DNA from: Amoebophrya sp. A120
Lineage: Eukaryota; Protista; Dinoflagellata
Length of the DNA: 64,000 nt
Direction: 5' to 3'
Assembly (NCBI GenBank): GCA_905178155.1
Contig: CAJINV010000005.1
Span: 4,940,256-5,004,255 of the forward strand
Part shown: one piece after another, positions 1 to 64,000 of the stretch
How positions within the stretch are numbered: the stretch's first letter is position 1
Layout: every line of letters begins with the position of its first letter
Notes under the pieces: generated by a model
Told to the model about the DNA's origin: nothing
The model's input: only the letters and a program-made list of their open reading frames with translations
The model's database searches: none
Translations under genes and position numbers: made by a program

Positions 1-188
1 GGGGGAGCCTTGCATCTTCAGCATGATAGGAGGCAGCTGAGAGTGGGAAACAGCATGACAACTTGCCTGCAAACGAGACCACGACTGCGGCTCTTGGCCT
101 TCTAGCATGACAAGTCGATTTGGTACCTCAAATCCTGCATCACAGATTTCCATTTCGATATGGGGAGGGGGGATTTTTCCGTTGGATA
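1..188. mobile_element. Introner, family C (partial, right end only)
   Basis: Ends gatatggggaggggggatttttccgttggata; homologous to 2779-3089. Confidence 0.85.
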
Positions 189-3100
189 TTTCGTGTCCGA
201 CAACTTCGTGTGGAACTTAGACATCTACTGCGACGCCATATGGATTGTAAAAGTGTCTGGGTCTGGAAACTTGTGATGCTGGGTGGCGTATCATGAAAAG
301 GCCACAGATGCTGGCTCAGCACGACAAGCTTTTGAGCTTCTAGGTGTTGCCTATTCTGCATGACAAGCTGCGTTTCTGCATGGCAGCAGAATGGGGCTCT
401 TGGGAAACGGGCATAACAGATTTAAGAGTCATGCGAGACTAGCATGACAAATCTCGCAATCTTCCAGACCCAGACATTTTTGCATTCGATACGCCATGAA
501 GTTCTACGACTTCAACGACGCGGATAAAAACCTCGACGAGTGGTACCACATGGCGCTGATGTGGGACAAAGCGGCGCTGAAGCATAGAGTGTACGTATTC
601 CGAGTAAAAACATCCCCACTCCAGAGTTGTCATGCAAATTTGCATGCCAAAAAAGTTTCTCATGCGGAGCCCCATGAGAAGCTTTTTCTAGTCGTGTTTT
701 GGGATTTGTGATGCTAGAAATAGCATGATATGCTAGATCTGTGACGCTGCTGAACTAGCTAAACAGGATTACACGACGAGGACAAACTTGTCATGCGAGA
801 CAACCAAAGGTGGCCGATTTGTCTAGCAGATTTTCCACGTTGACTCTGGTATGGGGACGTTTTTACTCAGGATAGTACGTAAACGGTGTGATGATCAAGG
901 AGGGGACCACGGATAACGCGAATCTCCCCAACACTATCAAAGAAAAAAAGTTCGTCACGATCACTCATGCGCATTTTTGCAATGCAAAACTTTTTGTCAT
1001 GCGTAAAAATGCATCACAGCCAAACTTCATTAGGGATTTCCCTAGTATTTCTGCAATACAAGGAAAGTTTTTGATGCTGAGAAAATTTGTAATGCAAAAC
1101 CTGCAAGTTAGTGACTGTGACAAACTTGTTTCTCTCCATAAACACGGAAGTAGCGACAGGGAAGATCTGCCTGGGCGGCCGCGTGGATCTCTGCTGGGGG
1201 CAGGCGTCCGAGCGGTACCAGGGGGAGGTCGCCGGGTTTGCGGTCTACGCCGGGGCTCTAGGGGAGGCTGAAGTGATAAAACACATGGCCAGGACCGGGC
1301 CGCAGGGGCCGGTGCCTAGCTTTACGGAGCCGCCTTTTAAGGCGCAGATGCCGAAGGACACGACTGTGACGGTAGGCTACAAGCACACGAAGGAAAGTAT
1401 GTCTACCCGACCTTATGCAGAAGCCGAAACCATCCTCGGCCCTGCAACTTTTATCCGCACGACGCTCGCGGTTTCCCACGCGGACGGGCTGAAGAAGCTG
1501 GGAGCTTCTGTGATGTCCGAGAAGTTGGAAAACAGCTTCGAGAAGATTTTCCAAGAAAAAGCGGAATTGGTATTCGGATCAAATGTGAAAAAGCCCACCG
1601 AAAATTACCCGCCGCGGCTAAAGGGTATTTCCGTCGTGAAAACGACGGAAGCCGCTGCGAATTCCGAGCTTTTTTTGGAAGTAGTTCTCTCCTTCGCGGA
1701 TTGCACGCCGAGTGCGCTCGCGCGATTGCTGGTCCAACTATCGGACAATGCCGGTAATTCCGCCACAACGAGATCTGAGCTGGAGAAGAAGCTCACTTCC
1801 CTGTCCACTCCGAGCGGTTTCTCCGCGGTCCGGTTCTCCAACCGGGCGCAGGTCTTGCCGTCGTTCGACTACCCGGTGGCTTTTGATATCGAACTGGTCG
1901 GGATGGATAGTGGGAATAAAACTGAAGTGCTGAAACAGTTGGAAAACGGGGATAAGGAATTCGTCTTCGAGTCCGAGTGGCAATCCGCTTTTTCCGCCCT
2001 CCTCGGGCCGGCGGTGCGGCAGGCTTCTTTGACGAACAATTTTGATCTCGCCGTTGAGTCCGGTTTAATCGCCGCCACTGTCGCCACAAAGCGGTTTTTC
2101 CGGGGACCCACCACCACGACAACCACCACCACCGCGGGGTCGTCTCTCCGACTGCTGGGTGAAGAGGAAAGACGACAAATAGCAACCAGAAGATCTCTGT
2201 CCAGCAGCTCTGACGGCTCGAAGGAGGTTCTTAAAGTTTTCGTCACCGCCTCTCTGCCCGGTACCGAGGATCTCATCGGTTCTGGAACAATTTCCGTTCT
2301 GCAAGACCAAATCTTTTCCGCCGCAGCGAAGATCGTGCAGACGGTGAGCAAAAAATCCTCAGAAAACGTGAAAATCGTCCAGAACTCCGTGGATGTCGAA
2401 ACGGTGCACACCAAATACGCCCCCGGCGCGAAGACACAAAAGCAGACGGCCACGTTTTTGACAAGTCTGACGTTGAATCACGCGGAGGACAAGTTGTCCG
2501 CTTTGGATTTCAAATTCGGCTTGGCGAAGGGGTTGATTGCGGGAGGAAGTACCTCTTCCACGAAGGACTACCTAGCGTTGAACAACCTCCACGGCAAAGC
2601 CTTCCACGGCCAGTCCGGCGAGTCTTTTGGTGTTTCCCTCCTCGGCACTTCCGATAGTCTCAATTTCGGGGCGATTTCTGCTGGAGATTATCTCCAACCG
2701 CCAACCGGTAGTTCAGCCACCTGGGCGGCTGCGAGCGCGATTCCGTTCCTTGCCGTGTTCCCGCAGGTGGAGAAATCCTATTACAATGAAAAATGCCCCC
2801 TCCCCATATCAAAACGGAAATCTGTGATGCAGATTTGTGGTCACAAATCAGCTCTGTGATGCCAGAAGGGAAGAGATGCGTATTGTAGTGCTGGCTGGCG
2901 CAGGAACGCCTTGCGTCTTCAGCATGACAGGAGGCAACTGGAAATGGGAAATAGCATGACAAATTGCCTCCAAACGAGGGAGCAACTGCGTCTCTTGGCC
3001 TTCTAGCAATGCAAGTCGATTTGTGTACTCAAATACAGCAATACAAATTTCGTTTTTGATATGGGGTGGGGGGATTTTTCCTTTTGATAAATCCACTGGG

Positions 3101-6100
3101 TTGGTCAGGACGGCGAAATTTGACTCGAATTTGGCGTATGACAGTTCCTATGGATTGCAAAAATGTCTGGGTCTGGAAGAATGGCAGGTCTGTCATGCTC
3201 TGCTAGCATGACTCCAAAGTCTGTCATGCTCGTTACCCAAAAGCCCCACTTTTCTGTCATGCTGAAACGCGGTTTGTCATGCAGAATACGTAACACCTAG
3301 CAAGTCAGAAACTTGTCATGCTGAGCCGTCACTTGTGCCGTCCTCAGGATTCGCCAACCAGCATTACAAGTTTCCAGACCCAGACACTTTTGCACTTGAT
3401 AGTTCCTCCATCGTGAGTTATGATTCGAAGTTAACGACATTCCTGATTTCCGACGGGATTTTCGGCAGTGCGAAAACGAACGGCGGGATTTCCATGTGCG
3501 ACATCGGCTGCTCGGATGCTTCGACGGATTTCTGCTACGACAAACTCGTCAGCGACGTGGAGAAGGGGACTGTTTCGAGTTCGGACTCCACTAAAACGTC
3601 TTCTGCTGGGGAGAAGTATTTGAGGAAAACCAGTTACAGTGTTGCTGAGTGCGGTCGGACGGCTGTGTTGTTTCAATCTTCGTTTCCAAACGATGTGAAC
3701 GCAGCGAAAGCGGGGAATTTAGAAGACTGTTTAACTTACTGCGATACGCTTGGCCGTGTGAATTGCGCGGGGGTGAAGTTCTTTACTTCCTCGGGGACAA
3801 AGAAGTGCTTTTTACAGAAGTTCTCGTCCAAGGATTTTTTCAGCCGCGCGAAGGTTTTGTCTTCTGCCCCGACCTGCGGATCCGATGTCGCGTGTTTCGA
3901 GAAGCAAACGACGGGGGAGAATGAACCACTGTACACGGAAATGTTGAACCCGGCAACAGTTCCGGCCAAGAAGGGGCTGTGCGCAACAGGGAGCCATACA
4001 AATTTTCGTCTGCTGCCGGACCTCCGCGGTAGGGTTAAGGGGAACAAGTACAATTGTATGGAGCTCTATGCAATACAAATTTCCCCGTACATGTACAACA
4101 TGCATCACAAATTTCACCAATTTGGAGCGTAAAACTTGTCATGCTAAACTAGGATCAAAGCCATGTTTTGTCATGCAGAGACCGCATCTGTACGTGTGCG
4201 GGAAATTTACTGTGCATAAGCTCTGCACAGAGTACGGTCCGGATTGCGTTGGCGTCGCGGGTGTTCAGTTTAACAACGGCAATGACGGAATGGAGGCGGA
4301 CGGGACCGTGTTTTGTGAGCTGGAACTCCGCACCGTCGCCAACCTGGATGACAAATACCTTTCCTGGGGCTTCACCCTGAACGATTCGGGTTTTTCTACC
4401 TCGGAACCCGCGGCGGCTCTCAACACCGTGCAGCCTCGGACGGAACCGGCTGAGTGCTGGAAAAAGACGGCGACTGCAACGACGACGAACGGCCCTTTCG
4501 CCTCCTTGTCGAAGTTGTATGAGCAGAAGATCTCCGTTTTGAAACAGCAAGCGCAGAAGGCTGTCATGCCGTTTTTGACTATGGACGCGAAGGATCTACC
4601 CCACCCGTTGCTCGGCCAGAAACTAAACCTCGCGAGTACCCCATTGGACACGTTCACGAATAGAATCGTCACTGCGTCCTCGAACTTCAGTCCGGGAACG
4701 TACTACCAATTCTTGGGGTACGGAAACGCAAAATCCTCTTCGAATGGTTTGGTTGTCTCCGGTTCTCGCAAGTTCTACACGACTTATCAAATGCAAAAGT
4801 GTCTGGGTCTGGAAGGATGCGAACTTGTGATGCGTGTTGCGGATCATACAAAAATCTGTGTTGCATGACTTGCTAAAGTTCCCCATTTCTAGCCATGCCG
4901 GGGGGGGGGGTATTTCTCATGCAGAATAGGCATCACCAAGCGGCTGCAGAACCTGTGATGCTAGGCCCTGCATTACAGACTTGGTGGAGCTTGGAAAAAA
5001 TGCATGACAGATACCGGAATTTTCCAGACCCAGACATTTTTGCATTTGATACGACTGGGAATGGTGCGATCGCGCGGAGTGACAACGGGGTGATGGAGTA
5101 CGAGTTGATTTACAAAAATTGCTTCAACTACTGCGACTACCTCGGAAAACATTGTCACGCGCTCTCGATTCAGGTTGATTTAACCGACGGGAGTACCGGG
5201 AAGTACCAGTGCTTTGTCATGCTGGCCTCCCAGCCGGCTGCTACTCTTCTTCCGACCGCGCCGGCCAACACGGTGACAACCACGACAACCACGACGTATC
5301 AAAATGAAAAATCCCTTGTCCCCATATTGAAAAGGAAATTTCTGTTGCTGGATTTGTGTACACAAATCAGCTCTGTCTTGCAGTGGGGTGCTGCAGGCAA
5401 AGCCTCAGCCTGCTGCGTAGGGGTGTTTTGATGTAGGTGCTTAGCATAAAAGCAGAGGCCTGCCGTATAGGCGCAGCAGCATAATTACAAACCGCCTCCA
5501 TAAAGCGGCGCACTCTTTGGATTTGCCCTCTTGCAAGAGAGACAGGATTTGTGGCCACAAATCAGCGTCGCAAATCTTTAGAAGCGTGCCCTTTCAACAG
5601 TATGGGGAGGGGGGATTTTTCCTCACAATACCACGGCTTTTTCCTTCCCAACCATCTCTGTCACACGAGAGCCGGACACCGTGGACTGGTACGACGCCAT
5701 GGCGTTTTTGCCGGATAACGTCGGCTATGAAATGCAAAAATGTCTGGGTCTGGAAACTTGTGATGCTAAAATGTGGATGATGGAAACAGTTCCGAATGCA
5801 ACCCAGCATGACAACTTTCCAGAATGCTTTCTCATAGTCAATCCGCATGAGAAACTGCGTTATTGCATGTACAAAAGAGGCTGCGACTTGTGTTGGTTAT
5901 GCAATACAGGTTTCCTAGCTAAGGAAAGCAAGCATTACAAGTTCCAATCTTCCAGACCCAGACATGTTTGCAATCCATATCGGCGGGTTTTACGGCGGCG
6001 TTTGTTCGGACAGCAGCACGGAGGACATATCCTGTGTGAAAACGTCCCCACCCCTACAGAGTTGTCATGCAGATTTGCGATGACAGGAAGATTTGTAATG

Positions 6101-57100: not shown

Positions 57101-60100
57101 GAGCCGTTGTTTCCTCCGCTTTGGAGAAGGAGGGTTTGAAGCTCGTTGCCCCCTCGGTTTCTTTCACGGATTCTGTTGTGAAAGCAACTCTTGTATCCCA
57201 AGGAAAAACTGTTTCACTGTAAACTTGTAATGCAGAAATTGTATCTCAGAAGTGCTTGTCTTGCTACACATGCAAGACAATGGATTTTTAGCGGTGTTGT
57301 CTCTTGGAAATCTCGCATAGCAAATTTTCTTTGTCATGCAGGACAAACTTGTGATGCAAAACTTGCAAAATCCTTAAAGTGAAACACTTTTTTCGTACGA
57401 TATCTTGCCGGTATGACTTCTGCGGAACAGGTGGATTCTTACCGGGTCAGCAACGTGATCGTCGCAGAAGTGACGAGTGCTGCGGATGTGAGTGGCGCGA
57501 CTGGGAAAAAGCTGTACTATTACATTGTGCCGTTGAACCTGCAGGAGCGGAATTTTGGAACAACGGCTGGTGGAGTAGCTTCTTCTACTCCCGTCGCTTA
57601 CTCCAATGTCGGAGGCGCTTCCCTCGCGAAGTTGCAAAATGTAACAAACAGCTTCGCTGCGGATTTCGACACGGAGTTCAACAAAACCTTCTCCGTGCTC
57701 GCGAACGCAGAAGGATTCGAACTGACCACGATAGTATCTTCTTCTGATGGTGGAGCTAGTAGTGCAACAAGTTCTTCCTCAACTGGTGCGGAAATCTCCC
57801 TCGCGAAGCAATTCGAGAAGAGCCTGCTGCAGCAACCGACCAGTTCGTCCCTCTCGCCGCTGTTTCTATCCTGAGTAAAAACGTACCCACACCAGAGTCA
57901 AGATGGGGATTTTGCAACGCAAACCTAGAACTTTTGGGGGTCACGCATCACAAATTGCAGTCCGTAGTTTAGTGCAGGTTCGCAAGGCCAGCTGCATCAG
58001 AAATCGATCTGCTCATCCTGTTTACAGCATTACAAATTCCAAAACACGACTAAAAATGCCTCTCCTGGCGATGCGCATTACAAATGTTCCTGTCATTGCA
58101 AATCTGCATGACAACTCTGGTGTGGGTACGTTTTTACTCAGGATAATTTCTCGAGACGAAGTTCATGGTCCAAGCAGACCTTTTGGACAACACTCTGGAC
58201 ATGAAGGACAAGCTATCACACAGAAAAAAGCAGGCAGCGCATGTTTGTAATGCAAAAACAAATAGACAGAAGAATCTGTCATGGGTTAATACCCCATAGC
58301 GTTCTGCTCAGGACATGCAATACAGATTTCTTTGTCTATTTATTTTTGCATTACAAATCTGACGCGTCTGCTTTTTTCTGTGTGATACAAGCAAACCAAG
58401 CTCGCGTTCGACAAAGTCGTCACCTCCCGGTTCCGCAGCGCAGTAGCCCACGCGTTGAAAGAAACGCTAGAGACTGAGAAGAAGGACCAACCGCTTTTAC
58501 CCGTTTCCTGCTTGATCGGAAAAGGGACGGAATCAAGAGAGCAAGCAGTAACCTCCACCACGACCACCACGACCAACCCAAATTGCTACCAGGAGAATCT
58601 GGCTTCTTTCCTTCCCGGGAGGTGGGAACTCTACATGTACAAGGGCGGGAGTGCTGGGAACGGCTACAATGACATGCGAATCGGGAAAAATGTGAATGGT
58701 CTGGGCACGCTCTGCCCGCACCCGACGAGTGGGAATGCAAAGATGGCGGAAGCGCTGTTCAACGAAAAGTGCTTCCGGCAAATTCTCGTCGTCGGCGGCG
58801 ACAAGACCTGGGGCCGAATTTGGTCGAAAGACGGGTCCTGCATCCCAGGCACCGACGCGTTTGGCACGGGTGCGAAGGGAACGATGAAAGATCGTTACAG
58901 CTCGGAGTGGAGCAGCAAGCCCGCTGGGGAGGTGGTGGATCTGCAAATAAAGCATGCGCACCACGGACCTATGATTGGCGATACCAACACGGGCAGTCAG
59001 TGGATGTGGCGGTGTAATAGCTACCCGAATTGCGCGCAGACCGATACGGGAAAAGTGGCTGGGGGTACCGGCCTGACGCTGTCGACCACCCTCGGGCGGC
59101 TGGTCACGGTGCCCGGCCAGGATCCCACCCAGGCAACGATGAGTTGGAACTGGTACGGGAGTCAGTTGTATGGTGTTGAGCCGGGCCCGTCCCCGTTCAT
59201 CCGGCAGCACCGGCCGATGACCTGTGTGGTTCAGGTGGAGCAGAGTGATGCTTCCGACCAGAATTACCTGCAGACGGTTATCGGGTTGTTGTCCGAAGCG
59301 GGTGTTGGGGACGCGGCGAGCAGTACTCTGAAGGAAAAAAGAGATTTGTTCTTGACCAATCTGGAAGTCCACTACAAGCAATTTCCACCCACGACGACCA
59401 CCACCCCGGCCGGGTATGTGGCGCCGCCCCCGCCGAGGTTCTGCCCGGCGGAGTTCGTCTGCCCGGGCGGGATGACGGTGAAGGACGGTGATGTAAAACT
59501 CTATCAGTGCCGGTCCCCGTATGGTTGCGTGGCGCTCGATTGCTGCAAAGTATCGGAGAAGAGTGTGTTTCAAGACGTGGCGTTTTCTGGAAAAATGGCG
59601 GAGTTTTTGGACGCGAACCACGTACTCGGTTTCAAGTACAAAACTGGGTTTGATAAAGAACAGATCTTTTCCACCGGTAGAGGTATCCTATGTAAAAACA
59701 CCCCCACCCCAGAGTTGTCATGCAAATCTGCATGCTGAGAATGTCTCTCATGCGGAGCCCCATGAGAAGCATTTTTTATTCGCGTTTGGAAATTTGTCAT
59801 GCTCCAATCAACATGGGAAACCGGATCTGTGATGCTGCTGAACTACCTCAAACAGCACTACACTACGAGCCCAAATCTGTCATGCAAAACAGCCAACACT
59901 TGTGGATCTGTCTAGCCGATTCCCCATCTTGACTATGGGGTGGGGACGTTTTTACATAGGATAAGAGGATCGTCGAGTTCATCTGCTGCGGAATTCCTCT
60001 CTTCCACCACCGCTTTCTTAGAGTTCGACGCGAAGAAGGTACTGGATGCGTACTTCACTGCCCACCAGTTCACATCTTCGAACTCCCCGGTGACTTTGTC

Positions 60101-63100
60101 CACAACGGATGCAGGGAAAATCGAATATGAGAGCATCAAACACTTCTCCACGATCGAAAACGATTTTTATCTGAACCACGGTGGTCTTGCCGTGCAAAAC
60201 CAGCTCCGAATGAAATCCCAGACGGATATCGACGCGATTTTCGCCGATTCCGCTCTGGAAATTCAGTTCACGCCAATCAGAGCGATCCTCAATTCCGCTT
60301 TCGGCGAGGCGTTAATGGATTTGACCGGTGTGGAGAATCTCACGCCGTTCCACGTGAACAGCAGACTGAGGAAGATCACGGGAACAGGTGCGGATCTGAA
60401 GGTTGAGCTGGCGGTTTCGATCCCCTACGCCACCCCGGAGTCCGGCTTTTTGAAGTTGATCTTCAAGAAGCTGGACAGTACTAGTACCGCGGGAGGTACT
60501 ACCAGCGCAGATAACTCCGTTTTCGGCAGCCGGATGAACAAAGCGTTAGCGAAGACGTTTGGGATGAGCGACCCAAATTCTGCGGATTTTTATCCTGTGT
60601 AAAAACGTCCCCACCCCAGAGTTGTCATGCAGATCTGCAATTGCAGGAACATTTGTAATGCGCGTCCCCAAGGGAGGCATTTCCAATCGTGTTTTGGCAT
60701 TTGTAATGCTGCGAACAGGATAAGCAGATGGATTTGTGATGCGGCCGTTCTTGCTAACATGCACTACACTACGGACTGCAACTTGTCATGCGTGGGTCCC
60801 AAAACTTCTGGATTTGTGTTGCTACGTTCCCAACTTGACTATGGGGTGGGGACGTTTTTGCATATGATAACTTCGGAATCAAAATCACCGAAGACGCGAA
60901 GGAAACGCAATTTGTGACCGCGAAGATAAGATTATCGCCGGAAGTGAAGGAGTCGCAGGAACTAACAAGTACGATTCCCAGTACTGGCGCAAATCTCAAG
61001 CAGTCTGCTTTCTCCGACGATTCCATGCTGTCGGTAGCTCAGGCTGCGGGGAGAAGTGCTGTGTTGGACATCCTGGGGCAGGCGGGGTCGAAGGTGAGCA
61101 CGCCGTGGTCTTTGTTGGCCATTCCGGAGGCGGTGCAGAATGAAGCTGGTTCATCTTCTACCGCCTCCTCTTCCCTGCGGAGCCTGGGTAGTAGCGCGTC
61201 TGAGCTGTTCGACTCCAGTAGTGCGCTGGTGGCGACCGGGCAGGAACTTGTTGCTCCGGCTGCGAAGAAGTGCTCGTCGCAGAGCGACCTTTTCTCCTCC
61301 ACCGGAGCGCTTCTCTTCGACAGTGACGTCACCACCGCGTGCACAGAAACCGAAACCACCCACCCGTTAGATCCGCGCGGCGACCACCCGAGTCCGATGC
61401 CGATCGACAGTTCATCCGCTGCTGCGTTGCGCGAACTTACGGCAAGTACTAGTGCAACAAGCAGTGCACAAGCGCAGAAGCGGCAGTACGACCTGAGACT
61501 GATCCTCCCATTGTCCGAGGAGATTTTCGACCCGGCAAACATCCAGTCGATCATAACCGCGTTCACTTCTGCCGGCAACAACTCCCCCTTCTACGGAAAG
61601 TTCGCCACAGAAATCTCCACCAACTTCCTCCCGCCGAAGCAACTGGCGGATGGGTCGACCAAGCCCGTGTTCGCTTCCACGAGCACAAATGATGTGATCA
61701 ACGTTTTGCTCCCAACCGCGTCTTCCTCCTCCGCGGATTTGTCTGGGATTACTGTTTCCGCAGATGTGCCCGCGCAATTTGGCATCAGCTACTTGCAGGT
61801 GAAGCTCGGCTTGATTTCCGAGCAAGGGATCCCGGCAGTCGCGTTGCAGAAGGCGTTTTTATTGGCGTGCAAATCGGAACTAGTAGAAAACATCATGTTT
61901 CCGAACAACTACAAGATCGATCAAGTCTCCGTGACCCACATCGGCCAGTCCGCGGCGGAGAACAAGAAGGTGCAAGACTTGTATTCTGCAGTTCTCTACA
62001 TCATATGAGAGTGCACAACTCCCCCTCCTCCTCATTTGTCATGCAAAATCCCAAATCCATATCCAGCTGCTGCCTTGTAGCACTGTTTGCATGACAAATT
62101 CTGGAAGCCCAAACAGTACTACACTGGGCACATAGATTTGTCATGCATAGGCTCCATGTGCGCTGGTGTTTGTATTGCTGTTCATGCCATACAAATGGGG
62201 GCGAGGGGGAGTTGGGCACTGTCATACCTCACCGGAGCGTCCCACAACGAGATTGGGCGGATCCAGAGTCTGTTCGTCCCGATGGTGGTTATGAAAGTGC
62301 ACAACTCCCCCTCCCCCTCATTTGTCATGCAAAATGCCTAAGTTACGCCGGGGTTCTTGGCAATGTTTGCATGACAAGTTCTAGCAGCCCAAATAGCACT
62401 ACAATCCTGCCCAAACTTGTCATGCAAAACCGGTAATCTTGCTGATGCTTGTATTGTTGTTCATGCAATACAAATGAGGGGGAGGGGGAGTTGTGCACTT
62501 TCATGGTGGTGAAGGGAAAAACGGAAGACGCGGCAAGTGATGGCCTCGCGAAGCAGTTTTTACTGAAGATTGGGGAGAATCTGGCGGATGAGCTGCAGAT
62601 CACAGACAGTGCGAAATATCCTCAGACCTTCACCGCTGACTTCGCCGATCCGGTCGCCCAGTCGATCGCGAAGATTGAGTTACAAAACGCTTTACCACCA
62701 CCCCCACACGACGCCGAAAAATGCGGCTACGACCCGAACCCCTCGATTCTTCCGGGCAAGTGGTTCCTCTACATGTACAAGCACGGACAGAATAAAGCGG
62801 CCAACGGCTGGAATGACATGCGGTTTGGGAAAAACGTTAATGGGTTAAATTCCCTCTGCCCGCACCCGACAAGTGGGAATGCGAAAATGTCGGAAGCGTT
62901 ATTCGACGCGTCCTGCTTCACGGAGCTCCTCGCGGTCGGTGGCACCGGCGCGTGGGCGAAAATCTGGCGCAAGGACGGGGCTTGTATCCCCGCGAAAGAC
63001 GCGTTTGGCGAGGGAGAGAAGCGGACGAACGGCTTCTACAGCATTGAGTTTTCCACGGGCTACAAGGGCGACGCGATTGTGAAGAACTTGTACCACGGAC

Positions 63101-64000
63101 CCTTGTTCAATGACATCAATACGGGCTCCATGTGGATGTGGCGTTGCAACAGCAAGAACGCCGACGGAAGCAGCTGCGCGCAGTACGACAGTGGCAGTGT
63201 GCTTGGGAGCCAATACGACAACAGCCCGGGTTCCTGGGGCACGCTGTTGACTTCCCTCCCCGGGCGGTATGCCCCGGGGGGCGAAAAGGGGAGAGGGACT
63301 GACGGGTATAGCTGGTCCTGGTACGGAAAGCAAACGACGGTCGCGCAAAGTCTCGATGAACCCACGACGGCCACAACGACCACGACGTTGTTCAAGAAGG
63401 TGAAGAGAGTGCTGGATGGCTGTGTCGCGGCCTATGACTTCGAGGAAGATGCCGCGGCGCATCCGGGAACAGATGCGGCGGTGTACAAGTCGACAGGTAT
63501 TTCCTCCTCCGGCGTCCCGACCGTCGCGCAACCGCTTGTGTGCGCGGGGAACCAGAAGAACAGTAAGGAGACCCTGAAAACGAGGGTGGGCACCGGCGGA
63601 GAGTACAAATCGTTGCTCTTCACCCGGTATTTACAGGAGGGCGGGTACTGCAGCGGCCCGGCCTTTGACATGCCACAGGATGACGAGAGCCGGACCGTGG
63701 TAGTTTGGTTCAAGCCGAAGATCGGGCCCGCGTATCACACCCCGGTTGGGAACGAGGAGTCGGCCACGTCCGGGCCGGTGGCCTACGGGAACGGGATTCC
63801 GGGCCAGGGTTGCAATTCCCACTTCGCGTTGTGGATCAGCGGGTTTGGGGGGAATTTGTACTTTGGACTAAACTGCCAGGACCCGGGTAATGCGAAGGAC
63901 GGGAACACGGGGTTTAACCCGGTGAAAACCAACCTCCCGGAGAGCTGGATCCACGTGGCGTTCAGCTACAATAAGAGCACCAACAAGTTCAAGCACTGGT
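189..64000 (+). CDS. Interior of a giant multi-exon gene (about 15,100 aa within the window, 5' and 3' partial): putative secreted/surface adhesin-like polyprotein with LamG, PAN/apple and Cys-rich repeats
   Basis: The long + strand ORFs (1111, 8722, 12527, 18900, 31733, 35346, 38052, 46138, 54367 etc.) join in frame when each TIR element plus 5 nt is removed. 63,811 - 18,483 = 45,328 nt, and the remainder of 1 matches the phase at the window end. Junctions are confirmed by intron-free paralogous domains inside the same gene. Confidence 0.88.
239..491. mobile_element. Introner family A (TIR core tgtctgggtctggaa)
   Basis: TAT..ATA, direct repeat (DR) cgcca/cgcca; empty site visible in paralog near 20595. 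Confidence 0.95.
596..874. mobile_element. Introner family B (TIR core gtaaaaacgtccccac)
   Basis: DR gtacg/gtacg; empty site in paralog near 20697. Confidence 0.95.
935..1140. mobile_element. Introner family D (TIR core gaaaaaa)
   Basis: DR aacac/aacac; empty site in paralog near 20752. Confidence 0.93.
2779..3089. mobile_element. Introner family C (TIR core gaaaaatccccctccccatatc)
   Basis: DR aatcc/aatcc. Confidence 0.92.
3149..3401. mobile_element. Introner family A
   Basis: DR gttcc/gttcc. Confidence 0.92.
4067..4218. mobile_element. Introner family E (TIR core tatgcaatacaaatttcc)
   Basis: DR agctc/agctc; homolog of 35248-35396. Confidence 0.92.
4785..5051. mobile_element. Introner family A
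   Basis: DR cgact/cgact. Confidence 0.92.
5297..5630. mobile_element. Introner family C
   Basis: DR cgacg/ccacg. Confidence 0.9.
5726..5979. mobile_element. Introner family A
   Basis: DR tcggc/tcggc. Confidence 0.92.
6028..6313. mobile_element. Introner family B
   Basis: DR ggaca/ggaca. Confidence 0.92.
7366..7514. mobile_element. Introner short family F (TIR tgcaaaagtatcgcactcgtataaatgc)
   Basis: DR tggaa/tggaa; long perfect inner TIR. Confidence 0.92.
7551..7800. mobile_element. Introner family A
   Basis: DR tggca/tggca. Confidence 0.92.
8042..8339. mobile_element. Introner family B lacking a recognisable DR
   Basis: Flanks cactg/agacc; the frame is still restored by removing element + 5 nt. 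Confidence 0.85.
8438..8705. mobile_element. Introner family A
   Basis: DR ggcat/ggcag. Confidence 0.9.
9670..9840 (+). repeat. Thr/Ser-rich low-complexity (mucin-like) coding linker
   Basis: Runs of ACN codons: TTTTTTTTSTSSTTTTSS...TVTTTV. Confidence 0.9.
10289..10541. mobile_element. Introner family A
   Basis: DR cgtgt/cgtgt. Confidence 0.92.
11492..11744. mobile_element. Introner family A
   Basis: DR gacca/aacca. Confidence 0.9.
11810..12088. mobile_element. Introner family B
   Basis: DR gacgc/gacgc. Confidence 0.92.
12312..12521. mobile_element. Introner family D
   Basis: DR tcccg/tcccg. Confidence 0.92.
15075..15356. mobile_element. Introner family B
   Basis: DR gcaga/tcaga. Confidence 0.9.
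15412..15659. mobile_element. Introner family A
   Basis: DR acggg/acggg. Confidence 0.92.
15908..16228. mobile_element. Introner family C
   Basis: DR ctgcg/ctgcg. Confidence 0.92.
16424..16751. mobile_element. Introner family A with internal insertions
   Basis: DR gaagc/gaagc; about 65 bp longer than relatives such as 40727-40987. Confidence 0.9.
16816..17029. mobile_element. Introner family D
   Basis: DR ggaca/ggaca. Confidence 0.92.
17310..18432. mobile_element. Introner family A carrying a nested 861-bp insertion
   Basis: DR acagc/acagc; removing 17520-18380 leaves a normal 262-bp family A element. Confidence 0.92.
17520..18380 (-). mobile_element. Non-autonomous Helitron-like element nested in an introner
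   Basis: On the minus strand it ends ..GCTCCGGC-GGTA-GCCGGAGC-ATGG-CTGG followed by T (8-bp hairpin, then CTRR). It sits between A and T with no clear TSD, and the AT-rich 5' end contains A|TCTATTATATT. Confidence 0.6.
18775..19053. mobile_element. Introner family B
   Basis: DR atgaa/atgaa. Confidence 0.92.
20226..20910 (+). other. LamG-like domain, copy 2 (intron-free)
   Basis: AEYDF..SRTIMGWVKP..WYHMALMWD..RVYVNG..ICLGG..YQGEIAGFAVYAGAIS; close paralog of 190-1290. Confidence 0.78.
20967..21229. mobile_element. Introner family A
   Basis: DR gtagc/gtagt. Confidence 0.9.
22263..22515. mobile_element. Introner family A
   Basis: DR tccga/gccga. Confidence 0.9.
22565..22829. mobile_element. 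Introner family A
   Basis: DR gattg/gattg. Confidence 0.92.
23653..23974. mobile_element. Introner family C
   Basis: DR ccttg/ccttg. Confidence 0.92.
24562..24851. mobile_element. Introner family B (inverted relative to 596-874)
   Basis: DR cgact/cgact. Confidence 0.92.
24875..26003 (+). repeat. Cys-rich repeated module X, copy 1
   Basis: AGWTIRP..GEG..GTGVIEIQFGNC..CNCV..GSEVR..TAWP..LKIEGL..MMTVY; aligns with 33113-34046. Confidence 0.8.
25523..25835. mobile_element. Introner family C (inverted relative to 2779-3089)
   Basis: DR cgtgg/catgg; empty site TAWP in paralog near 33888. Confidence 0.92.
26149..26416. mobile_element. Introner family A
   Basis: DR gttat/gttat. Confidence 0.92.
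26555..26810. mobile_element. Introner singleton family H (TIRs contain tandem repeats)
   Basis: DR gtgtc/gtgtc. Confidence 0.88.
26867..27118. mobile_element. Introner family A (close relative of 239-491)
   Basis: DR cgggg/cgggg. Confidence 0.92.
27302..27557. mobile_element. Introner family A
   Basis: DR gttca/gctca. Confidence 0.9.
27956..28217. mobile_element. Introner family A
   Basis: DR cgcgg/cgcgg. Confidence 0.92.
29466..29719. mobile_element. Introner family A
   Basis: DR gttgg/cttgg. Confidence 0.9.
29917..30168. mobile_element. Introner family A
   Basis: DR gtgaa/gtgaa. Confidence 0.92.
30218..30520. mobile_element. Introner family B
   Basis: DR gaagt/gaagt. Confidence 0.92.
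31432..31695. mobile_element. Introner family A
   Basis: DR gccgg/gccgg. Confidence 0.92.
32066..32318. mobile_element. Introner family A (in frame, stop-free)
   Basis: DR ggggc/ggggc; read through by ORF 31733..35512. Confidence 0.92.
33113..34046 (+). repeat. Cys-rich repeated module X, copy 2
   Basis: AGWTIRP..GEG..GTGEIEVKFGNC..CNCV..GSEVR..TAWP..LKLEGL..MMTLY. Confidence 0.8.
35248..35396. mobile_element. Introner family E
   Basis: DR gtctt/gtttt. Confidence 0.9.
37446..37708. mobile_element. Introner family A
   Basis: DR agtcc/agtcc. Confidence 0.92.
37772..38035. mobile_element. Introner family A
   Basis: DR agcgt/agcgt. Confidence 0.92.
40413..40645. mobile_element. Introner family D (inverted relative of 935-1140)
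   Basis: DR agatc/agatc. Confidence 0.9.
40727..40987. mobile_element. Introner family A
   Basis: DR tttct/tttct. Confidence 0.92.
41150..41411. mobile_element. Introner family A
   Basis: DR tccct/tccct. Confidence 0.92.
41512..41764. mobile_element. Introner family A (inverted relative of 27302-27557)
   Basis: DR caacc/caacc. Confidence 0.92.
42183..42465. mobile_element. Introner family B
   Basis: DR acccg/acccg. Confidence 0.92.
43043..43364. mobile_element. Introner family C
   Basis: DR ctggt/ctggt. Confidence 0.92.
43414..43678. mobile_element. Introner family A
   Basis: DR aaggt/aaggt. Confidence 0.92.
43739..43947. mobile_element. Introner family D
   Basis: DR ttcga/ttcga. Confidence 0.92.
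44266..44422. mobile_element. Introner, short F-like
   Basis: TIR tatgcattgcaaaag; DR cggca/cgggg. Confidence 0.88.
45924..46185. mobile_element. Introner family A
   Basis: DR ccggg/ccggg; empty site YAGPGE in paralog near 48550. Confidence 0.93.
49323..49479. mobile_element. Introner, short F-like, with ambiguous boundary
   Basis: tatgcattgcaaaa..ttttgcgatggata; flanks gagat/attat (alternative DR attat overlapping the left terminus). Confidence 0.8.
49672..49950. mobile_element. Introner family B (close relative of 596-874)
   Basis: DR cgagt/cgagt. Confidence 0.92.
50562..50762. mobile_element. Introner family D
   Basis: DR caaga/caaga. Confidence 0.92.
51012..51220. mobile_element. Introner family D
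   Basis: DR cccga/cccgg. Confidence 0.9.
52852..53113. mobile_element. Introner family A
   Basis: DR tggaa/cggaa. Confidence 0.9.
53430..53682. mobile_element. Introner family A (close relative of 32066-32318)
   Basis: DR cggat/cggag. Confidence 0.9.
54236..54498. mobile_element. Introner family A
   Basis: DR agatt/agatt. Confidence 0.92.
57194..57402. mobile_element. Introner family D
   Basis: DR tcttg/tcttg. Confidence 0.92.
57867..58145. mobile_element. Introner family B
   Basis: DR gtttc/atttc. Confidence 0.9.
58214..58387. mobile_element. Introner, D-like, perfect 20-bp TIR
   Basis: tatcacacagaaaaaagcag..ctgcttttttctgtgtgata; DR caagc/caagc. Confidence 0.92.
58603..59190 (+). repeat. 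Repeated module Y, copy 1
   Basis: LPGRWELYMYK..NDMRIGKNVNGL..LCPHPTSGNAKMAEALF..WMWRCNS..WNWYG; aligns with 62746-63330. Confidence 0.8.
59684..59963. mobile_element. Introner family B
   Basis: DR agagg/agagg. Confidence 0.92.
60591..60869. mobile_element. Introner family B
   Basis: DR atttt/acttc (both differences synonymous). Confidence 0.9.
62004..62226. mobile_element. Introner family G (TIR gtgcacaactccccctc)
   Basis: DR catca/cctca. Confidence 0.9.
62290..62505. mobile_element. Introner family G, right end ATG instead of ATA
   Basis: DR gtggt/gtggt. Confidence 0.9.
62746..63330 (+). repeat. Repeated module Y, copy 2
   Basis: LPGKWFLYMYK..NDMRFGKNVNGL..LCPHPTSGNAKMSEALF..WMWRCNS..WSWYG, in the open frame running off the window end. 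Confidence 0.8.
63424..64000 (+). other. LamG-like domain, copy 3 (divergent, truncated by window end)
   Basis: VAAYDFEE..SRTVVVWFKP..VAYG..WIHVAFSYN. Confidence 0.7.

What the first reader, a model, noticed from the sequence alone, without database searches (positions are those of the whole stretch)
189..64000. Hidden single ORF of more than 15,000 aa: adhesin-like mega-protein
Seen: the spliced frame has no stop at any junction I translated and is open at both window edges (45,328 nt by manual count). It contains 3 LamG-like domains, more than 10 PAN/apple-like modules, several duplicated Cys-rich modules and mucin-like linkers. Established: PAN/apple domains occur in apicomplexan microneme adhesins such as MIC4. 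Inference: a giant surface or invasion protein of a parasitic alveolate that standard gene finders would shatter into fragments.
Basis: partly seen in the sequence, partly recalled or inferred. Interest (0 to 1): 0.75.

Follow-up and report, generated by a model that had tools for sequence, protein, structure and literature searches.

The report
Giant gene split by 68 introners
This 64-kb stretch of an Amoebophrya-like parasitic dinoflagellate genome reads as one unbroken 15,110-codon frame once 68 transposon-like "introner" introns are taken out, and it likely encodes part of a huge secreted, adhesive surface protein.

Summary
Removing 68 TA-bounded elements with inverted ends and 5-nt flanking repeats leaves 69 exons. 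These give 45,331 nt, or 15,110 codons, with no stop. The other two frames have 683 and 466 stops. The frame is open at both window edges, and the window starts inside an intron.

None of the 68 introns needs GT-AG. Their ends match the introner elements published for Amoebophrya strain A120 (PMC7789003). Transcript-like contigs of a public run join exons at 11 of the 16 introns in the last 20 kb.

The protein has one full and two edge-cut LamG domains. It has 13 Cys-patterned modules, of which 2 reach Pfam's PAN_1 threshold. It also has three duplicated Cys-rich module pairs and a 58-residue Thr/Ser run. About four fifths of it matches no known family.

N-x-S/T sites are four-fold depleted along the whole length (34 against 134 expected, z -9.8). 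No membrane-like segment is present. Both fit a protein that travels the secretory route.

The only relative found among 1.84 billion proteins is a 4,843-residue partial protein of Amoebophrya sp. A25.

The intron type is already known. The giant gene is a new member of a known kind. The adhesin role is inferred, not shown.

The parts
187..64000 (+). partial giant coding region: 69 exons, 15,110 codons, open at both window ends
   Evidence: 0 stops after removal of 68 introns; other frames 683 and 466 stops; exon table
1..186 (+). 3' part of a family C introner; the window starts inside an intron
   Evidence: ends ...GGGGGGATTTTTCCGTTGGATA at 186, like family C right ends
187..1314 (+). LamG copy 1, C-terminal part only (aa 2-125), crossed by 3 introns
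   Evidence: 78% identical to aa 4298-4422
20415..20888 (+). LamG copy 2, complete (aa 4252-4409)
   Evidence: Pfam Laminin_G_3 E 3.5e-16, 60.1 bits, cut-off 27.6
63595..63999 (+). LamG copy 3, N-terminal part, cut by the window end (aa 14976-15108)
   Evidence: 30% identical to aa 4237-4344, E 4.6e-07
3632..3916 (+). PAN/apple module
   Evidence: Pfam PAN_1 22.4 bits, cut-off 21.4, E 1.1e-4
51558..51842 (+). PAN/apple module
   Evidence: Pfam PAN_1 21.4 bits, cut-off 21.4, E 2.2e-4
47755..48039 (+). PAN-like module, just below threshold
   Evidence: Pfam PAN_1 19.6 bits, E 8.3e-4
10135..10698 (+). PAN-like module split by intron 10288-10545
   Evidence: Pfam PAN_4 20.1 bits, cut-off 27, E 6.7e-4, on the unspliced frame; no hit for the 51-residue piece alone
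4224..9684 (+). six further modules with the C-x3-C...C...C pattern (4224-4400, 5057-5293, 6630-6914, 7041-7325, 8797-9081, 9400-9684)
   Evidence: cysteine pattern and alignment; no Pfam family at the gathering score
47317..51563 (+). three further modules with the same pattern (47317-47601, 50382-50558, 51279-51563)
   Evidence: no PAN hit
9664..9835 (+). 58-residue Thr/Ser run (mucin-like linker)
   Evidence: shorter runs at 2110-2143 and 54162-54207
24544..26008 (+). Cys-rich module with ..FGNC.. motif (aa 5254-5537), copy 1
   Evidence: 32-43% identical to aa 7004-7329
33077..34054 (+). Cys-rich module with ..FGNC.. motif (aa 7004-7329), copy 2
45511..47472 (+). large duplicated block, copy 1 (aa 10155-10719)
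   Evidence: 26-38% identical to aa 10944-11593; aligns to the A25 protein P0001
48145..50540 (+). large duplicated block, copy 2 (aa 10944-11593)
58605..59057 (+). module of unknown family (aa 13652-13802), copy 1
   Evidence: 57% identical to aa 14692-14844
62743..63201 (+). module of unknown family (aa 14692-14844), copy 2
   Evidence: no PDB or Pfam match
238..495 (+). introner intron, family A
   Evidence: element 239-491, repeats CGCCA/CGCCA
595..878 (+). introner intron, family B
   Evidence: element 596-874, GTACG/GTACG
934..1144 (+). introner intron, family E
   Evidence: element 935-1140, AACAC/AACAC
2778..3093 (+). introner intron, family C
   Evidence: element 2779-3089, AATCC/AATCC
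3148..3405 (+). introner intron, family A
   Evidence: element 3149-3401, GTTCC/GTTCC
4066..4222 (+). introner intron, family F
   Evidence: element 4067-4218, AGCTC/AGCTC
4784..5055 (+). introner intron, family A
   Evidence: element 4785-5051, CGACT/CGACT
5296..5634 (+). introner intron, family C
   Evidence: element 5297-5630, CGACG/CCACG
5725..5983 (+). introner intron, family A
   Evidence: element 5726-5979, TCGGC/TCGGC
6027..6317 (+). introner intron, family B
   Evidence: element 6028-6313, GGACA/GGACA
7365..7518 (+). introner intron, family G
   Evidence: element 7366-7514, TGGAA/TGGAA
7550..7804 (+). introner intron, family A
   Evidence: element 7551-7800, TGGCA/TGGCA
8041..8343 (+). 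introner intron, family B, flanking repeat lost
   Evidence: element 8042-8339, CACTG/AGACC, found by eye from family B ends
8437..8709 (+). introner intron, family A
   Evidence: element 8438-8705, GGCAT/GGCAG; keeping the left fifth base would make a TGA stop
10288..10545 (+). introner intron, family A
   Evidence: element 10289-10541, CGTGT/CGTGT
11491..11748 (+). introner intron, family A
   Evidence: element 11492-11744, GACCA/AACCA
11809..12092 (+). introner intron, family B
   Evidence: element 11810-12088, GACGC/GACGC
12311..12525 (+). introner intron, single copy in the window
   Evidence: element 12312-12521, TCCCG/TCCCG
15074..15360 (+). introner intron, family B
   Evidence: element 15075-15356, GCAGA/TCAGA; an X3 contig piece ends at 15070
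15411..15663 (+). introner intron, family A
   Evidence: element 15412-15659, ACGGG/ACGGG
15907..16232 (+). introner intron, family C
   Evidence: element 15908-16228, CTGCG/CTGCG; an X7 contig piece starts at 16229 inside the contig
16423..16755 (+). introner intron, family A
   Evidence: element 16424-16751, GAAGC/GAAGC; the same X7 piece ends at 16418 inside the contig
16815..17033 (+). introner intron, family D
   Evidence: element 16816-17029, GGACA/GGACA
17309..18436 (+). long introner intron, family A ends with about 860 nt of other sequence inside
   Evidence: element 17310-18432 (1,123 nt), ACAGC/ACAGC
18774..19057 (+). introner intron, family B
   Evidence: element 18775-19053, ATGAA/ATGAA; an X3 piece starts at 19054
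20966..21233 (+). introner intron, family A
   Evidence: element 20967-21229, GTAGC/GTAGT
22262..22519 (+). introner intron, family A
   Evidence: element 22263-22515, TCCGA/GCCGA
22564..22833 (+). introner intron, family A
   Evidence: element 22565-22829, GATTG/GATTG
23652..23978 (+). introner intron, family C
   Evidence: element 23653-23974, CCTTG/CCTTG; an X7 piece starts at 23974 inside the contig
24561..24855 (+). introner intron, family B
   Evidence: element 24562-24851, CGACT/CGACT; an X3 piece starts at 24852 inside the contig
25522..25839 (+). introner intron, family C
   Evidence: element 25523-25835, CGTGG/CATGG
26148..26420 (+). introner intron, family A
   Evidence: element 26149-26416, GTTAT/GTTAT
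26554..26814 (+). introner intron, single copy, inverted ends doubled in tandem
   Evidence: element 26555-26810, GTGTC/GTGTC; no run evidence seen
26866..27122 (+). introner intron, family A
   Evidence: element 26867-27118, CGGGG/CGGGG
27301..27561 (+). introner intron, family A
   Evidence: element 27302-27557, GTTCA/GCTCA
27955..28221 (+). introner intron, family A
   Evidence: element 27956-28217, CGCGG/CGCGG
29465..29723 (+). introner intron, family A
   Evidence: element 29466-29719, GTTGG/CTTGG
29916..30172 (+). introner intron, family A
   Evidence: element 29917-30168, GTGAA/GTGAA
30217..30524 (+). introner intron, family B
   Evidence: element 30218-30520, GAAGT/GAAGT
31431..31699 (+). 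introner intron, family A
   Evidence: element 31432-31695, GCCGG/GCCGG
32065..32322 (+). introner intron, family A; the only one that could be read through in frame without a stop
   Evidence: element 32066-32318, GGGGC/GGGGC
35247..35400 (+). introner intron, family F
   Evidence: element 35248-35396, GTCTT/GTTTT
37445..37712 (+). introner intron, family A
   Evidence: element 37446-37708, AGTCC/AGTCC; RNA fold -120.8 kcal/mol, z -11.45
37771..38039 (+). introner intron, family A
   Evidence: element 37772-38035, AGCGT/AGCGT
40412..40649 (+). introner intron, family E
   Evidence: element 40413-40645, AGATC/AGATC
40726..40991 (+). introner intron, family A
   Evidence: element 40727-40987, TTTCT/TTTCT
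41149..41415 (+). introner intron, family A
   Evidence: element 41150-41411, TCCCT/TCCCT
41511..41768 (+). introner intron, family A
   Evidence: element 41512-41764, CAACC/CAACC
42182..42469 (+). introner intron, family B
   Evidence: element 42183-42465, ACCCG/ACCCG
43042..43368 (+). introner intron, family C
   Evidence: element 43043-43364, CTGGT/CTGGT
43413..43682 (+). introner intron, family A
   Evidence: element 43414-43678, AAGGT/AAGGT
43738..43951 (+). introner intron, family D
   Evidence: element 43739-43947, TTCGA/TTCGA
44265..44426 (+). introner intron, family G; the joint that fixes the cut position
   Evidence: element 44266-44422, CGGCA/CGGGG; X3 joint 44264>44427, no ambiguity
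45923..46189 (+). introner intron, family A
   Evidence: element 45924-46185, CCGGG/CCGGG
49322..49483 (+). introner intron, single copy
   Evidence: element 49323-49479, GAGAT/ATTAT; X3 joint 49320>49483
49671..49954 (+). introner intron, family B
   Evidence: element 49672-49950, CGAGT/CGAGT
50561..50766 (+). introner intron, family D
   Evidence: element 50562-50762, CAAGA/CAAGA
51011..51224 (+). introner intron, family D
   Evidence: element 51012-51220, CCCGA/CCCGG; X3 joint 51006>51221
52851..53117 (+). introner intron, family A
   Evidence: element 52852-53113, TGGAA/CGGAA; X3 contig contiguous across the joint 52847>53115 (tables 5 and 8)
53429..53686 (+). introner intron, family A
   Evidence: element 53430-53682, CGGAT/CGGAG; X3 contig contiguous across the joint 53424>53683 (tables 5 and 8)
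54235..54502 (+). introner intron, family A
   Evidence: element 54236-54498, AGATT/AGATT; X3 joint skips 268
57193..57406 (+). introner intron, family D
   Evidence: element 57194-57402, TCTTG/TCTTG
57866..58149 (+). introner intron, family B
   Evidence: element 57867-58145, GTTTC/ATTTC; X3 joint skips 284
58213..58391 (+). introner intron, single copy
   Evidence: element 58214-58387, CAAGC/CAAGC; X3 joint skips 179
59683..59967 (+). introner intron, family B
   Evidence: element 59684-59963, AGAGG/AGAGG; X3 joint skips 285
60590..60873 (+). introner intron, family B
   Evidence: element 60591-60869, ATTTT/ACTTC, found by eye
62003..62230 (+). introner intron, family H
   Evidence: element 62004-62226, CATCA/CCTCA; X3 joint skips 228
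62289..62509 (+). introner intron, family H
   Evidence: element 62290-62505, GTGGT/GTGGT; X3 joint skips 221

Best explanation
The window is an internal piece of one very large protein-coding gene: 69 exons form a stop-free frame of 15,110 codons, interrupted by 68 short mobile-element-like introns ('introners') that carry TA..TA ends, inverted terminal repeats and a 5-nt flanking duplication.

Shown by the sequence and the run contigs: each intron is removed together with exactly one copy of the 5-nt repeat, which restores the frame.

Inferred:
- The inverted ends pair in the pre-mRNA into a long stem. This would bring the two exon ends together.
- The cut likely falls after the fourth base of the flanking repeat on both sides. 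That is 1 nt before the first TA and 4 nt after the last TA. No GT-AG is needed.
- The protein is likely made in the secretory pathway and displayed or released outside the cell of an Amoebophrya-like parasite.
- Its LamG, PAN/apple and other cysteine-rich modules, spaced by long domains of unknown fold and a mucin-like run, would bind host-surface sugars or proteins. The likely role is attachment to the dinoflagellate host, though a structural extracellular role fits nearly as well.
For: Gene structure:
- 0 stops in 15,110 codons, against 683 and 466 in the other frames.
- 63 of 68 introns hold an in-frame stop if read through, and 4 more shift the frame.
- The flanking repeat matches at 5 of 5 bases in 49 of 68 introns and at 4 of 5 in 15.
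- The family A end motif occurs 61 times, against 0.27 expected.

Removal from transcripts:
- Run X3 contigs join exons at 11 of the 16 introns in 44001-64000. For 7 of 8 introns predicted beforehand, the joined product is identical. The eighth differs only at a mismatched repeat base.
- Two of these joints are contiguous within one contig (table 8).
- Run X1 has even depth of about 45 on exons. Its contigs run from exons into element ends, so the DNA holds the elements.
- An estuary metatranscriptome contig (X7) has a piece that spans exactly exon 16229-16418 in the middle of the contig. Of 9 exon differences in X7, 6 are synonymous third-position changes.

Hairpin: fold energy -120.8 kcal/mol, z -11.45.

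Cut position: joints at mismatched repeats keep left bases 1, 2 and 4 and right base 5. Keeping left base 5 at element 8438 would create a stop (shift 0).

Organism and element type:
- 64 of 68 elements begin TAT, then 4-10 nt, then AAA at both ends. This is as described for A120 (PMC7789003 section 11, read).
- The sole relative is a protein of Amoebophrya sp. A25.

Secretory or extracellular nature:
- Laminin_G_3 at E 3.5e-16.
- PAN_1 at or above the gathering score for 2 modules.
- 236 cysteines clustered in modules.
- A 58-residue Thr/Ser run and no membrane-like window.
- 34 N-x-S/T sites against 133.7 +/- 10.1 in shuffles, z -9.8. The reverse motif is at expectation (138 against 133.5). 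The depletion is seen in every 1,500-residue block.
Against: - Neither gene end is in the window, so no signal peptide, anchor or stop is seen.
- No read or contig shows one 45-kb transcript. Contigs are short, with depth about 3-6.
- The library type of X3 and X4 is only guessed to be RNA. Nine of the 11 joints are flagged 'between: not known'.
- In 7500-27499 the joint table was flooded by repeat joints of X1 (978 rows not shown). Only piece ends support splicing there.
- Three raw RNA runs of the same species label (X11-X13) laid only 2, 26 and 136 reads. These lay in 2-3 of the 30 depth bins, most of them holding introner copies.
- About four fifths of the protein has no family, no PDB relative and no confident model.
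- 9 of 13 PAN-like modules have no PAN hit. A profile of the modules found nothing in the PDB. The module model has pLDDT 52 and no fold match.
- The A25 relative is not sequon-depleted (24 against 21.3). No other protein of this genome was available to test whether the depletion is gene-specific.
- The exact cut position rests on one unambiguous joint.
Confidence: 0.65

Rival explanations
1. The protein is secreted or extracellular, but it is structural rather than adhesive. Examples would be a spore coat, a matrix or an extrusome component. The lectin-like modules would then cross-link the parasite's own material rather than bind the host.
For: About four fifths of the length is Cys-poor, Ser/Thr/Ala-rich sequence with no known family. 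There is no anchor or membrane-like segment in 15,110 residues. The size is typical of matrix proteins. The sequon depletion and the modules fit any secretory protein.
Against: LamG and PAN/apple modules are most often found in binding proteins (general knowledge, recalled). Nothing in the window separates the two roles.
Confidence: 0.25
2. The frame is real, but it is processed into several mRNAs by internal spliced-leader addition or polyadenylation. The cell would then make several smaller proteins, not one giant.
For: Dinoflagellates trans-splice arrays of genes (general knowledge, recalled). No contig or read spans more than a few exons. The A25 relative is annotated as a 4,843-residue partial protein.
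Against: There is no stop codon in 45,331 nt. Sequon depletion is uniform in all ten 1,500-residue blocks. No intergenic spacer remains, because every non-coding stretch is an introner. The loose ends shown include none that I recognise as a spliced leader, but most rows were not shown.
Confidence: 0.07
3. The elements are cut out of DNA in some nuclei or cells, like ciliate TA-bounded eliminated sequences. They would not be spliced from RNA. The 'transcript' contigs would come from rearranged DNA or from transcripts of it.
For: The elements are TA-bounded with transposon-like ends. Removal is precise and needs no GT-AG. The X3 library type is a guess.
Against: The paper that described these elements validated them as introns with RNA-seq (PMC7789003, passages read). 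Run X1 shows the elements at exon edges at the same depth as the exons. No joined form was seen among the X1 rows displayed, although many rows were hidden.
Confidence: 0.05
4. The locus is a decaying pseudogene overrun by miniature transposons. The open frame is a remnant.
For: There are 68 insertions in 64 kb, and expression is low or absent in three raw RNA runs.
Against: A dead gene would not keep 15,110 codons free of stops. Variation in an environmental relative is mostly synonymous (6 of 9). The sequon depletion is motif-specific. Contigs with joined exons exist.
Confidence: 0.02

Closest known systems
Introner elements of Amoebophrya sp. A120 (Farhat et al. 2021, BMC Biol 19:1, PMC7789003; abstract, sections 10-11 and discussion passages read)
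   Same: Inverted ends that begin TAT, then about seven variable bases, then a run of A. Short direct repeats lie at the exon borders. The RNA is predicted to form a hairpin. There is no GT-AG, there are many families, and no transposase lies inside. Intron density is about 1.5 per kb of coding sequence here (68 in 45.3 kb), against 1.42 reported.
   Different: Nothing essential; these look like members. What this window adds is a single gene in which all 68 introns are of this type, and an indication of a fixed cut position. The paper's Fig. 3 legend calls the border position unknown or variable.
CAD7922239.1, unnamed protein product, partial, Amoebophrya sp. A25 (P0001)
   Same: It is 30% identical over window protein aa 9837-10616 and 26% over 11517-12305, in the same order. 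It carries the same FGNC-type and PAN-like modules. Its only Pfam matches are also sub-threshold PAN_4 and PAN_1 hits.
   Different: It is 4,843 residues and partial. It lacks the tandem duplication of aa 10155-10719 and 10944-11593. Its remaining roughly 3,000 residues do not align beyond two short PAN-like stretches. It is not sequon-depleted.
Apicomplexan PAN/apple microneme adhesins (e.g. Toxoplasma MIC4; recalled, not fetched)
   Same: Repeated PAN/apple modules in a parasite protein of the alveolate lineage.
   Different: Those proteins consist almost wholly of a few PAN modules and are under about 1,000 residues. Here PAN-like modules make up under a tenth of the length, mixed with LamG and unknown domains. 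No microneme targeting or processing signals can be assessed.
Transposon-type introners of Micromonas and Aureococcus, and those surveyed across eukaryotes (as summarised in PMC7789003 discussion; PMC9860276 seen in a search listing only)
   Same: Non-autonomous elements with inverted ends and target-site duplications. They create introns on insertion into genes.
   Different: According to PMC7789003, those elements use canonical splice motifs. Here only 1 of 68 reads GT..AG at the inferred cut.
TA-bounded internal eliminated sequences of Paramecium (recalled)
   Same: Short TA-bounded elements with transposon-like ends that interrupt genes and are removed precisely.
   Different: Those are removed from DNA, and the TA itself is the duplicated target. 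Here the duplication is 5 nt outside the TA, the elements are present in the DNA run at exon depth, and the joined forms are in transcript-like contigs.

Membership tests
Amoebophrya A120-type introner elements | Inverted repeat starting TAT, about seven variable bases, then at least three A (PMC7789003 section 11) | tested here: met
   64 of 68 elements match TAT + 4-10 nt + AAA at both ends; 65 of 68 match at each end taken singly.
Amoebophrya A120-type introner elements | Short direct repeats (3-5 nt) at the exon/intron borders | tested here: met
   The 5-nt repeat is identical in 49 of 68 and matches at 4 of 5 in 15. It matches at 3 of 5 in 2, at 2 of 5 in 1 and at 0 of 5 in 1. In 106 complete family A copies from another public assembly, 91 are identical.
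Amoebophrya A120-type introner elements | Non-canonical splice ends | tested here: met
   At the inferred cut, 1 of 68 reads GT..AG, and 38 different end combinations occur.
Amoebophrya A120-type introner elements | Removed from transcripts | tested here: met
   Contigs of run X3 join exons at 11 of 16 introns in 44001-64000, and 2 of these are contiguous in one contig. The X3 library type is a guess. 52 of the 68 introns have no joint evidence here.
Amoebophrya A120-type introner elements | Ends pair into a hairpin | tested here: met
   One element was folded: z -11.45, with a terminal stem running to the TA ends. Inverted-end identity is 19-30 of 30 for the 58 elements.
Laminin G / ConA-like (Pfam PF13385 Laminin_G_3) | Score above the Pfam gathering threshold | tested here: met
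   60.1 bits against 27.6, profile positions 5-150 of 151. The two edge copies are identified only by similarity to this one.
PAN/apple domain (Pfam PF00024, PF14295) | Score above the Pfam gathering threshold | tested here: inconclusive
   Of 13 candidate modules, 2 reach the PAN_1 cut-off (22.4 and 21.4 bits against 21.4) and 1 scores 19.6. One PAN_4 hit of 20.1 bits is below its cut-off of 27. The other 9 have no PAN hit.
PAN/apple domain (Pfam PF00024, PF14295) | Helix packed on a five-stranded sheet, held by the conserved disulfides | tested here: inconclusive
   The model of one module, built with a 9-row alignment, has pLDDT 52. It shows one helix plus a two-strand hairpin. No Foldseek match has E <= 0.001. 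A profile of the modules found nothing in the PDB at E <= 10. The cysteine spacing C..C-x3-C..C..C is present.
Microneme adhesins of the MIC4 type | Signal peptide, microneme location, release at invasion | not testable with these tools
   The N-terminus lies outside the window and there are no localisation data.
Microneme adhesins of the MIC4 type | Architecture made essentially of tandem PAN/apple modules | tested here: not met
   PAN-like modules cover roughly 1,200 of 15,110 residues. The rest is LamG, other cysteine-rich modules and unknown sequence.

The most novel reading that the evidence does not exclude
Introner removal here follows one fixed ruler set by the hairpin, not by splice-site sequence. 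The 5' cut is one base before the first TA of the stem, and the 3' cut is four bases after the last TA. This holds for unrelated element families and with any flanking bases. If so, these introns would be excised by a structure-measuring mechanism different from ordinary GT-AG recognition. A single gene with 68 of them, and with mismatched flanking repeats, would be a ready-made test bed for it.
Probability: 0.3. Interest if true: 0.8.

Novelty: new member of a known kind. Interest (0 to 1): 0.5.

Why it matters
The locus shows how far introner invasion can go. A gene of more than 45 kb of coding sequence has every one of its 68 introns in this window made by a mobile element. None needs GT-AG. 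Ordinary gene finders would therefore likely miss or fragment one of the largest genes of the genome.

The 19 imperfect flanking repeats allow the exact cut to be read, which the original description left open.

The protein is a candidate host-attachment or extracellular matrix molecule of a parasite group that controls dinoflagellate blooms. Its strong, uniform loss of N-glycosylation sites is an unusual sequence-only clue that it is secreted.

Tried and rejected
Searches for relatives:
- Word-indexed search with the 1,043-residue exon, near lengths: none.
- The same tool with the alignment of PAN-like modules, longer lengths: none.
- Metagenome contig scan with the 790-residue exon: 90 pattern matches, none confirmed.
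- The third homologous-protein search was not used.

Fold and family:
- Single-sequence AlphaFold of exon 51225-52850: pLDDT 34.4, unusable.
- Module model with a 9-row alignment: pLDDT 52. Foldseek against the PDB gave only chance-level rows.
- VIA-align searches were not run on so weak a model.
- PDB sequence searches with four exons and one profile gave nothing useful. The best were E 0.16 and 0.68 chance hits.
- ESM Atlas, two calls: best scores 0.81-0.82, below the level that means anything. A 0.77 row named intelectin is a weak lead only.
- My own iterative HMM search for repeats in the Cys-poor bulk, from six seeds: each found only itself.

RNA evidence:
- Raw RNA runs X11-X13 gave almost no cover (2, 26 and 136 reads). 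They say nothing about splicing or expression.
- Including the DNA-like run X1 in the second lay flooded the joint table (978 rows hidden). The intron-size joints of X3, X4 and X7 in 7500-27499 could not be read. Both lays are spent.

Other checks:
- A GT-AG solution for the gap at 26596-26801 was considered. I dropped it in favour of the TA..TA element with the perfect GTGTC repeat; there is no run evidence either way.
- Minus-strand frames of up to 384 residues and the frame inside the 1,123-nt element have no Pfam family.
- There are no Rfam families or tRNAs in the window.
- No whole genome is held for the window.
- Earlier findings of the scan: none for this genome.

Full report
**What the raw sequence shows**

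The window has about 51% G+C and no N. The plus strand carries many long open frames that keep changing phase. Many of these frames end or begin with the same odd peptides. At DNA level these peptides are two halves of an inverted repeat. A 17-base motif from it occurs 61 times on alternating strands, against 0.27 expected. The hits pair up into units of about 250 nt.

**Defining the interruptions by a rule**

Each unit starts and ends with TA, has inverted ends, and is flanked by a 5-nt direct repeat. I searched the whole window for this architecture: TA..TA, at least 19 of 30 inverted-end matches, and at least 4 of 5 repeat matches.

- The search gave 61 pairs. I dropped 3: two were inward-shifted duplicates and one was a chimera of two elements. 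That left 58.
- A relaxed local search added 3.
- Four more were revealed by run contigs. They then proved to have the same TA..TA ends.
- Two family B copies with decayed flanking repeats were found by eye.
- One element with doubled inverted ends and a perfect GTGTC repeat closed the last gap.

The total is 68. They fall into 12 similarity groups of 32, 13, 6, 5, 2, 2, 2, 2, 1, 1, 1 and 1 copies.

**The frame**

Removing each element plus 5 nt, and starting at base 187, leaves 69 exons. Together they give 45,331 nt and 15,110 codons without a stop. The other two frames of the same spliced sequence have 683 and 466 stops.

The window begins inside a family C element that ends at 186, and the frame is still open at 64000. 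The gene is therefore larger than the window.

If read through, 63 of 68 introns bring an in-frame stop and 4 more shift the frame. Only one, 32065-32322, could be read through.

No conventional intron is needed anywhere. At the inferred cut, only 1 of 68 reads GT..AG.

**Evidence from public runs**

Thirteen coded runs were offered.

*Last 20 kb.* Contigs of run X3, whose library type is only guessed to be RNA, show 11 joints that skip 162-285 nt. They fall at 11 of the 16 introns in this stretch.
- For 8 introns I had predicted the joint beforehand. Seven gave an identical product. The eighth differs only at a mismatched repeat base.
- Two joints are contiguous within one contig. Nine are flagged 'between: not known'.
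- The other 4 rows listed are long-range or strand-switch joints between repeat copies.
- Three raw RNA runs of the same species label laid only 2, 26 and 136 reads, and are uninformative.

*7500-27499.* I included run X1 as a control.
- X1 behaves as DNA. Its depth on exons is even, at about 45. Its contigs run from exons about 27 nt into the element ends. Its depth on element sequence reaches 10^4 to 10^5, so the families have very many copies genome-wide.
- Its repeat joints flooded the table, with 978 rows hidden. For this stretch I can only report contig piece ends that coincide with exon edges: 15070, 19054, 24852, 23974 and 16229-16418.
- The last of these lies in the middle of a 410-nt contig of an estuary metatranscriptome (X7).
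- X7 differs from the window at 9 exon positions. Six are synonymous third-position changes. This fits purifying selection in a wild relative.

**Where the cut falls**

With perfect repeats the cut cannot be placed. With mismatched repeats it can.

| Joint | What it shows |
|---|---|
| 52847>53115, contiguous in the contig | Left base 1 is kept |
| 62000>62229 | Left base 2 is kept |
| 53424>53683 (contiguous) and 51006>51221 | Right base 5 is kept |
| 44264>44427 (no ambiguity, but 'between: not known') | Left bases 1-4 and right base 5 are kept |

Independently, keeping left base 5 at element 8438 would create a TGA. The 'element plus right repeat' rule gives 1 stop, and all other registers give 0.

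One register fits everything: cut after repeat base 4 on both sides. That is 1 nt before the first TA and 4 nt after the last TA. It is firm only as 'after base 1 to 4'. The exact position rests on one joint.

One element folded as RNA forms a terminal stem that reaches the TA ends (-120.8 kcal/mol, z -11.45).

**What is already known**

Farhat et al. 2021 (PMC7789003; abstract, sections 10-11 and discussion passages read) described these objects in Amoebophrya strains A25 and A120.
- They are non-canonical introns with inverted and direct repeats, forming hairpins, in many families.
- In A120 the inverted repeats start TAT, followed by seven less-conserved bases and at least three A. Here 64 of 68 elements fit this at both ends.
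- The paper's Fig. 3 legend says the border position remains unknown or variable.

The same family A end occurs in at least 130 loci of another public assembly. Among 106 complete copies there, 96 have TAT..ATA ends and 91 have a perfect 5-nt repeat. None of those loci is this window.

The intron type is therefore known. The element definition used here is supported by independent copies.

**The protein**

- Pfam finds one solid domain, Laminin_G_3 (E 3.5e-16).
- Self-comparison finds two more LamG pieces at the window edges and three pairs of duplicated Cys-rich modules.
- Thirteen modules share a C..C-x3-C..C..C pattern. Scanned singly, two reach the PAN_1 gathering score (22.4 and 21.4 bits against 21.4), one scores 19.6, and one region gives PAN_4 at 20.1 bits against a cut-off of 27. 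Nine give no PAN hit.
- A profile of the modules finds nothing in the PDB. A model of one module is weak (pLDDT 52) and has no fold match. 'PAN-like' is therefore established for a few modules and is an inference for the rest.
- The rest, about four fifths of the length, is Cys-poor and rich in Ser, Ala and Thr. It has no family, no PDB relative, no detectable internal repeat and no informative Atlas neighbour.
- An exhaustive HMMER search with a 1,043-residue exon found one protein among 1.84 billion representatives. It is a 4,843-residue partial protein of Amoebophrya sp. A25. It is collinear at 26-30% identity with aa 9837-12305, and its only Pfam matches are also sub-threshold PAN hits.
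- No protein of the window's own organism was returned.

**Clues to location**

- There is a 58-residue Thr/Ser run and no membrane-like window in 15,110 residues.
- N-x-S/T sites number 34, against 133.7 +/- 10.1 in shuffles (z -9.8).
- The reverse motif (138 against 133.5), N-x-A, D-x-S/T and adjacent N-S/T are all at expectation.
- The shortage is seen in every 1,500-residue block, with 1-8 observed against 11-16 expected.
- Selection against sequons in proteins that enter the secretory pathway has been argued for buried sites in general (PMC5562741, passages read). It has also been argued for Plasmodium and Toxoplasma. For that I saw only the title of Bushkin et al. 2010 in a reference list. 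The paper is not held and its content is recalled.
- I read the depletion as a sign that the whole chain passes the ER. Its uniformity also argues for one protein.
- Caveats: the A25 relative shows no depletion (24 against 21.3), and I had no other protein of this genome as a control.

**Verdict**

The introns are members of a published class. The protein is a new, very large, lineage-restricted modular protein that is likely extracellular. An adhesive role in host attachment is the best guess, and a structural extracellular role is a close rival. The link to apicomplexan microneme adhesins is only a partial domain resemblance.

Noticed in passing
17309-18436: One family A introner is 1,123 nt long. 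Its first 210 nt and last 54 nt match ordinary copies. About 860 nt inside match no other element in the window, and a 177-residue frame inside has no Pfam family. Depth in run X1 over this interior is about 2,300 against 45 on exons, so the interior is itself repeated in the genome.
   Followed up: partly
whole spliced protein versus P0001: The window's protein is four-fold depleted in N-x-S/T sites. Its Amoebophrya A25 relative is not (24 observed, 21.3 expected). The two strains may differ in N-glycosylation or in the selection acting on it.
   Followed up: partly
Among 106 complete copies, 91 have perfect 5-nt flanking repeats. Copies are up to 96% identical to window copies, with a median of 83%.
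   Followed up: partly
all 68 introns: Intron lengths are a multiple of three in 33 of 68 cases (19 and 16 for the other two classes), a mild excess. No base preference is visible in or around the 5-nt target.
   Followed up: partly
32065-32322: This is the only introner that is stop-free and in frame (258 nt). If retained, it would add 86 residues rather than break the protein.
   Followed up: no
26554-26814: This intron has its inverted ends doubled in tandem on both sides, with 17-nt and 15-nt units. It is unlike the other families, and no run evidence for its borders was seen.
   Followed up: partly
14977-19542 (exons): An estuary metatranscriptome (run X7) holds contigs of a close relative of this gene. 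It has 9 exon differences, 6 of them synonymous. The gene, or a close homologue, therefore appears in RNA libraries from nature.
   Followed up: partly
62743-63201 and 58605-59057: A duplicated module of about 150 residues (57% identical copies) has no known family. The nearest named Atlas cluster is an intelectin-like one at 0.77, below any meaningful level.
   Followed up: partly
37445-38039, 22262-22833, 40726-41415: Several exons are tiny (31-60 nt) and lie between two introners. The elements therefore insert very close to one another without loss of the frame.
   Followed up: no
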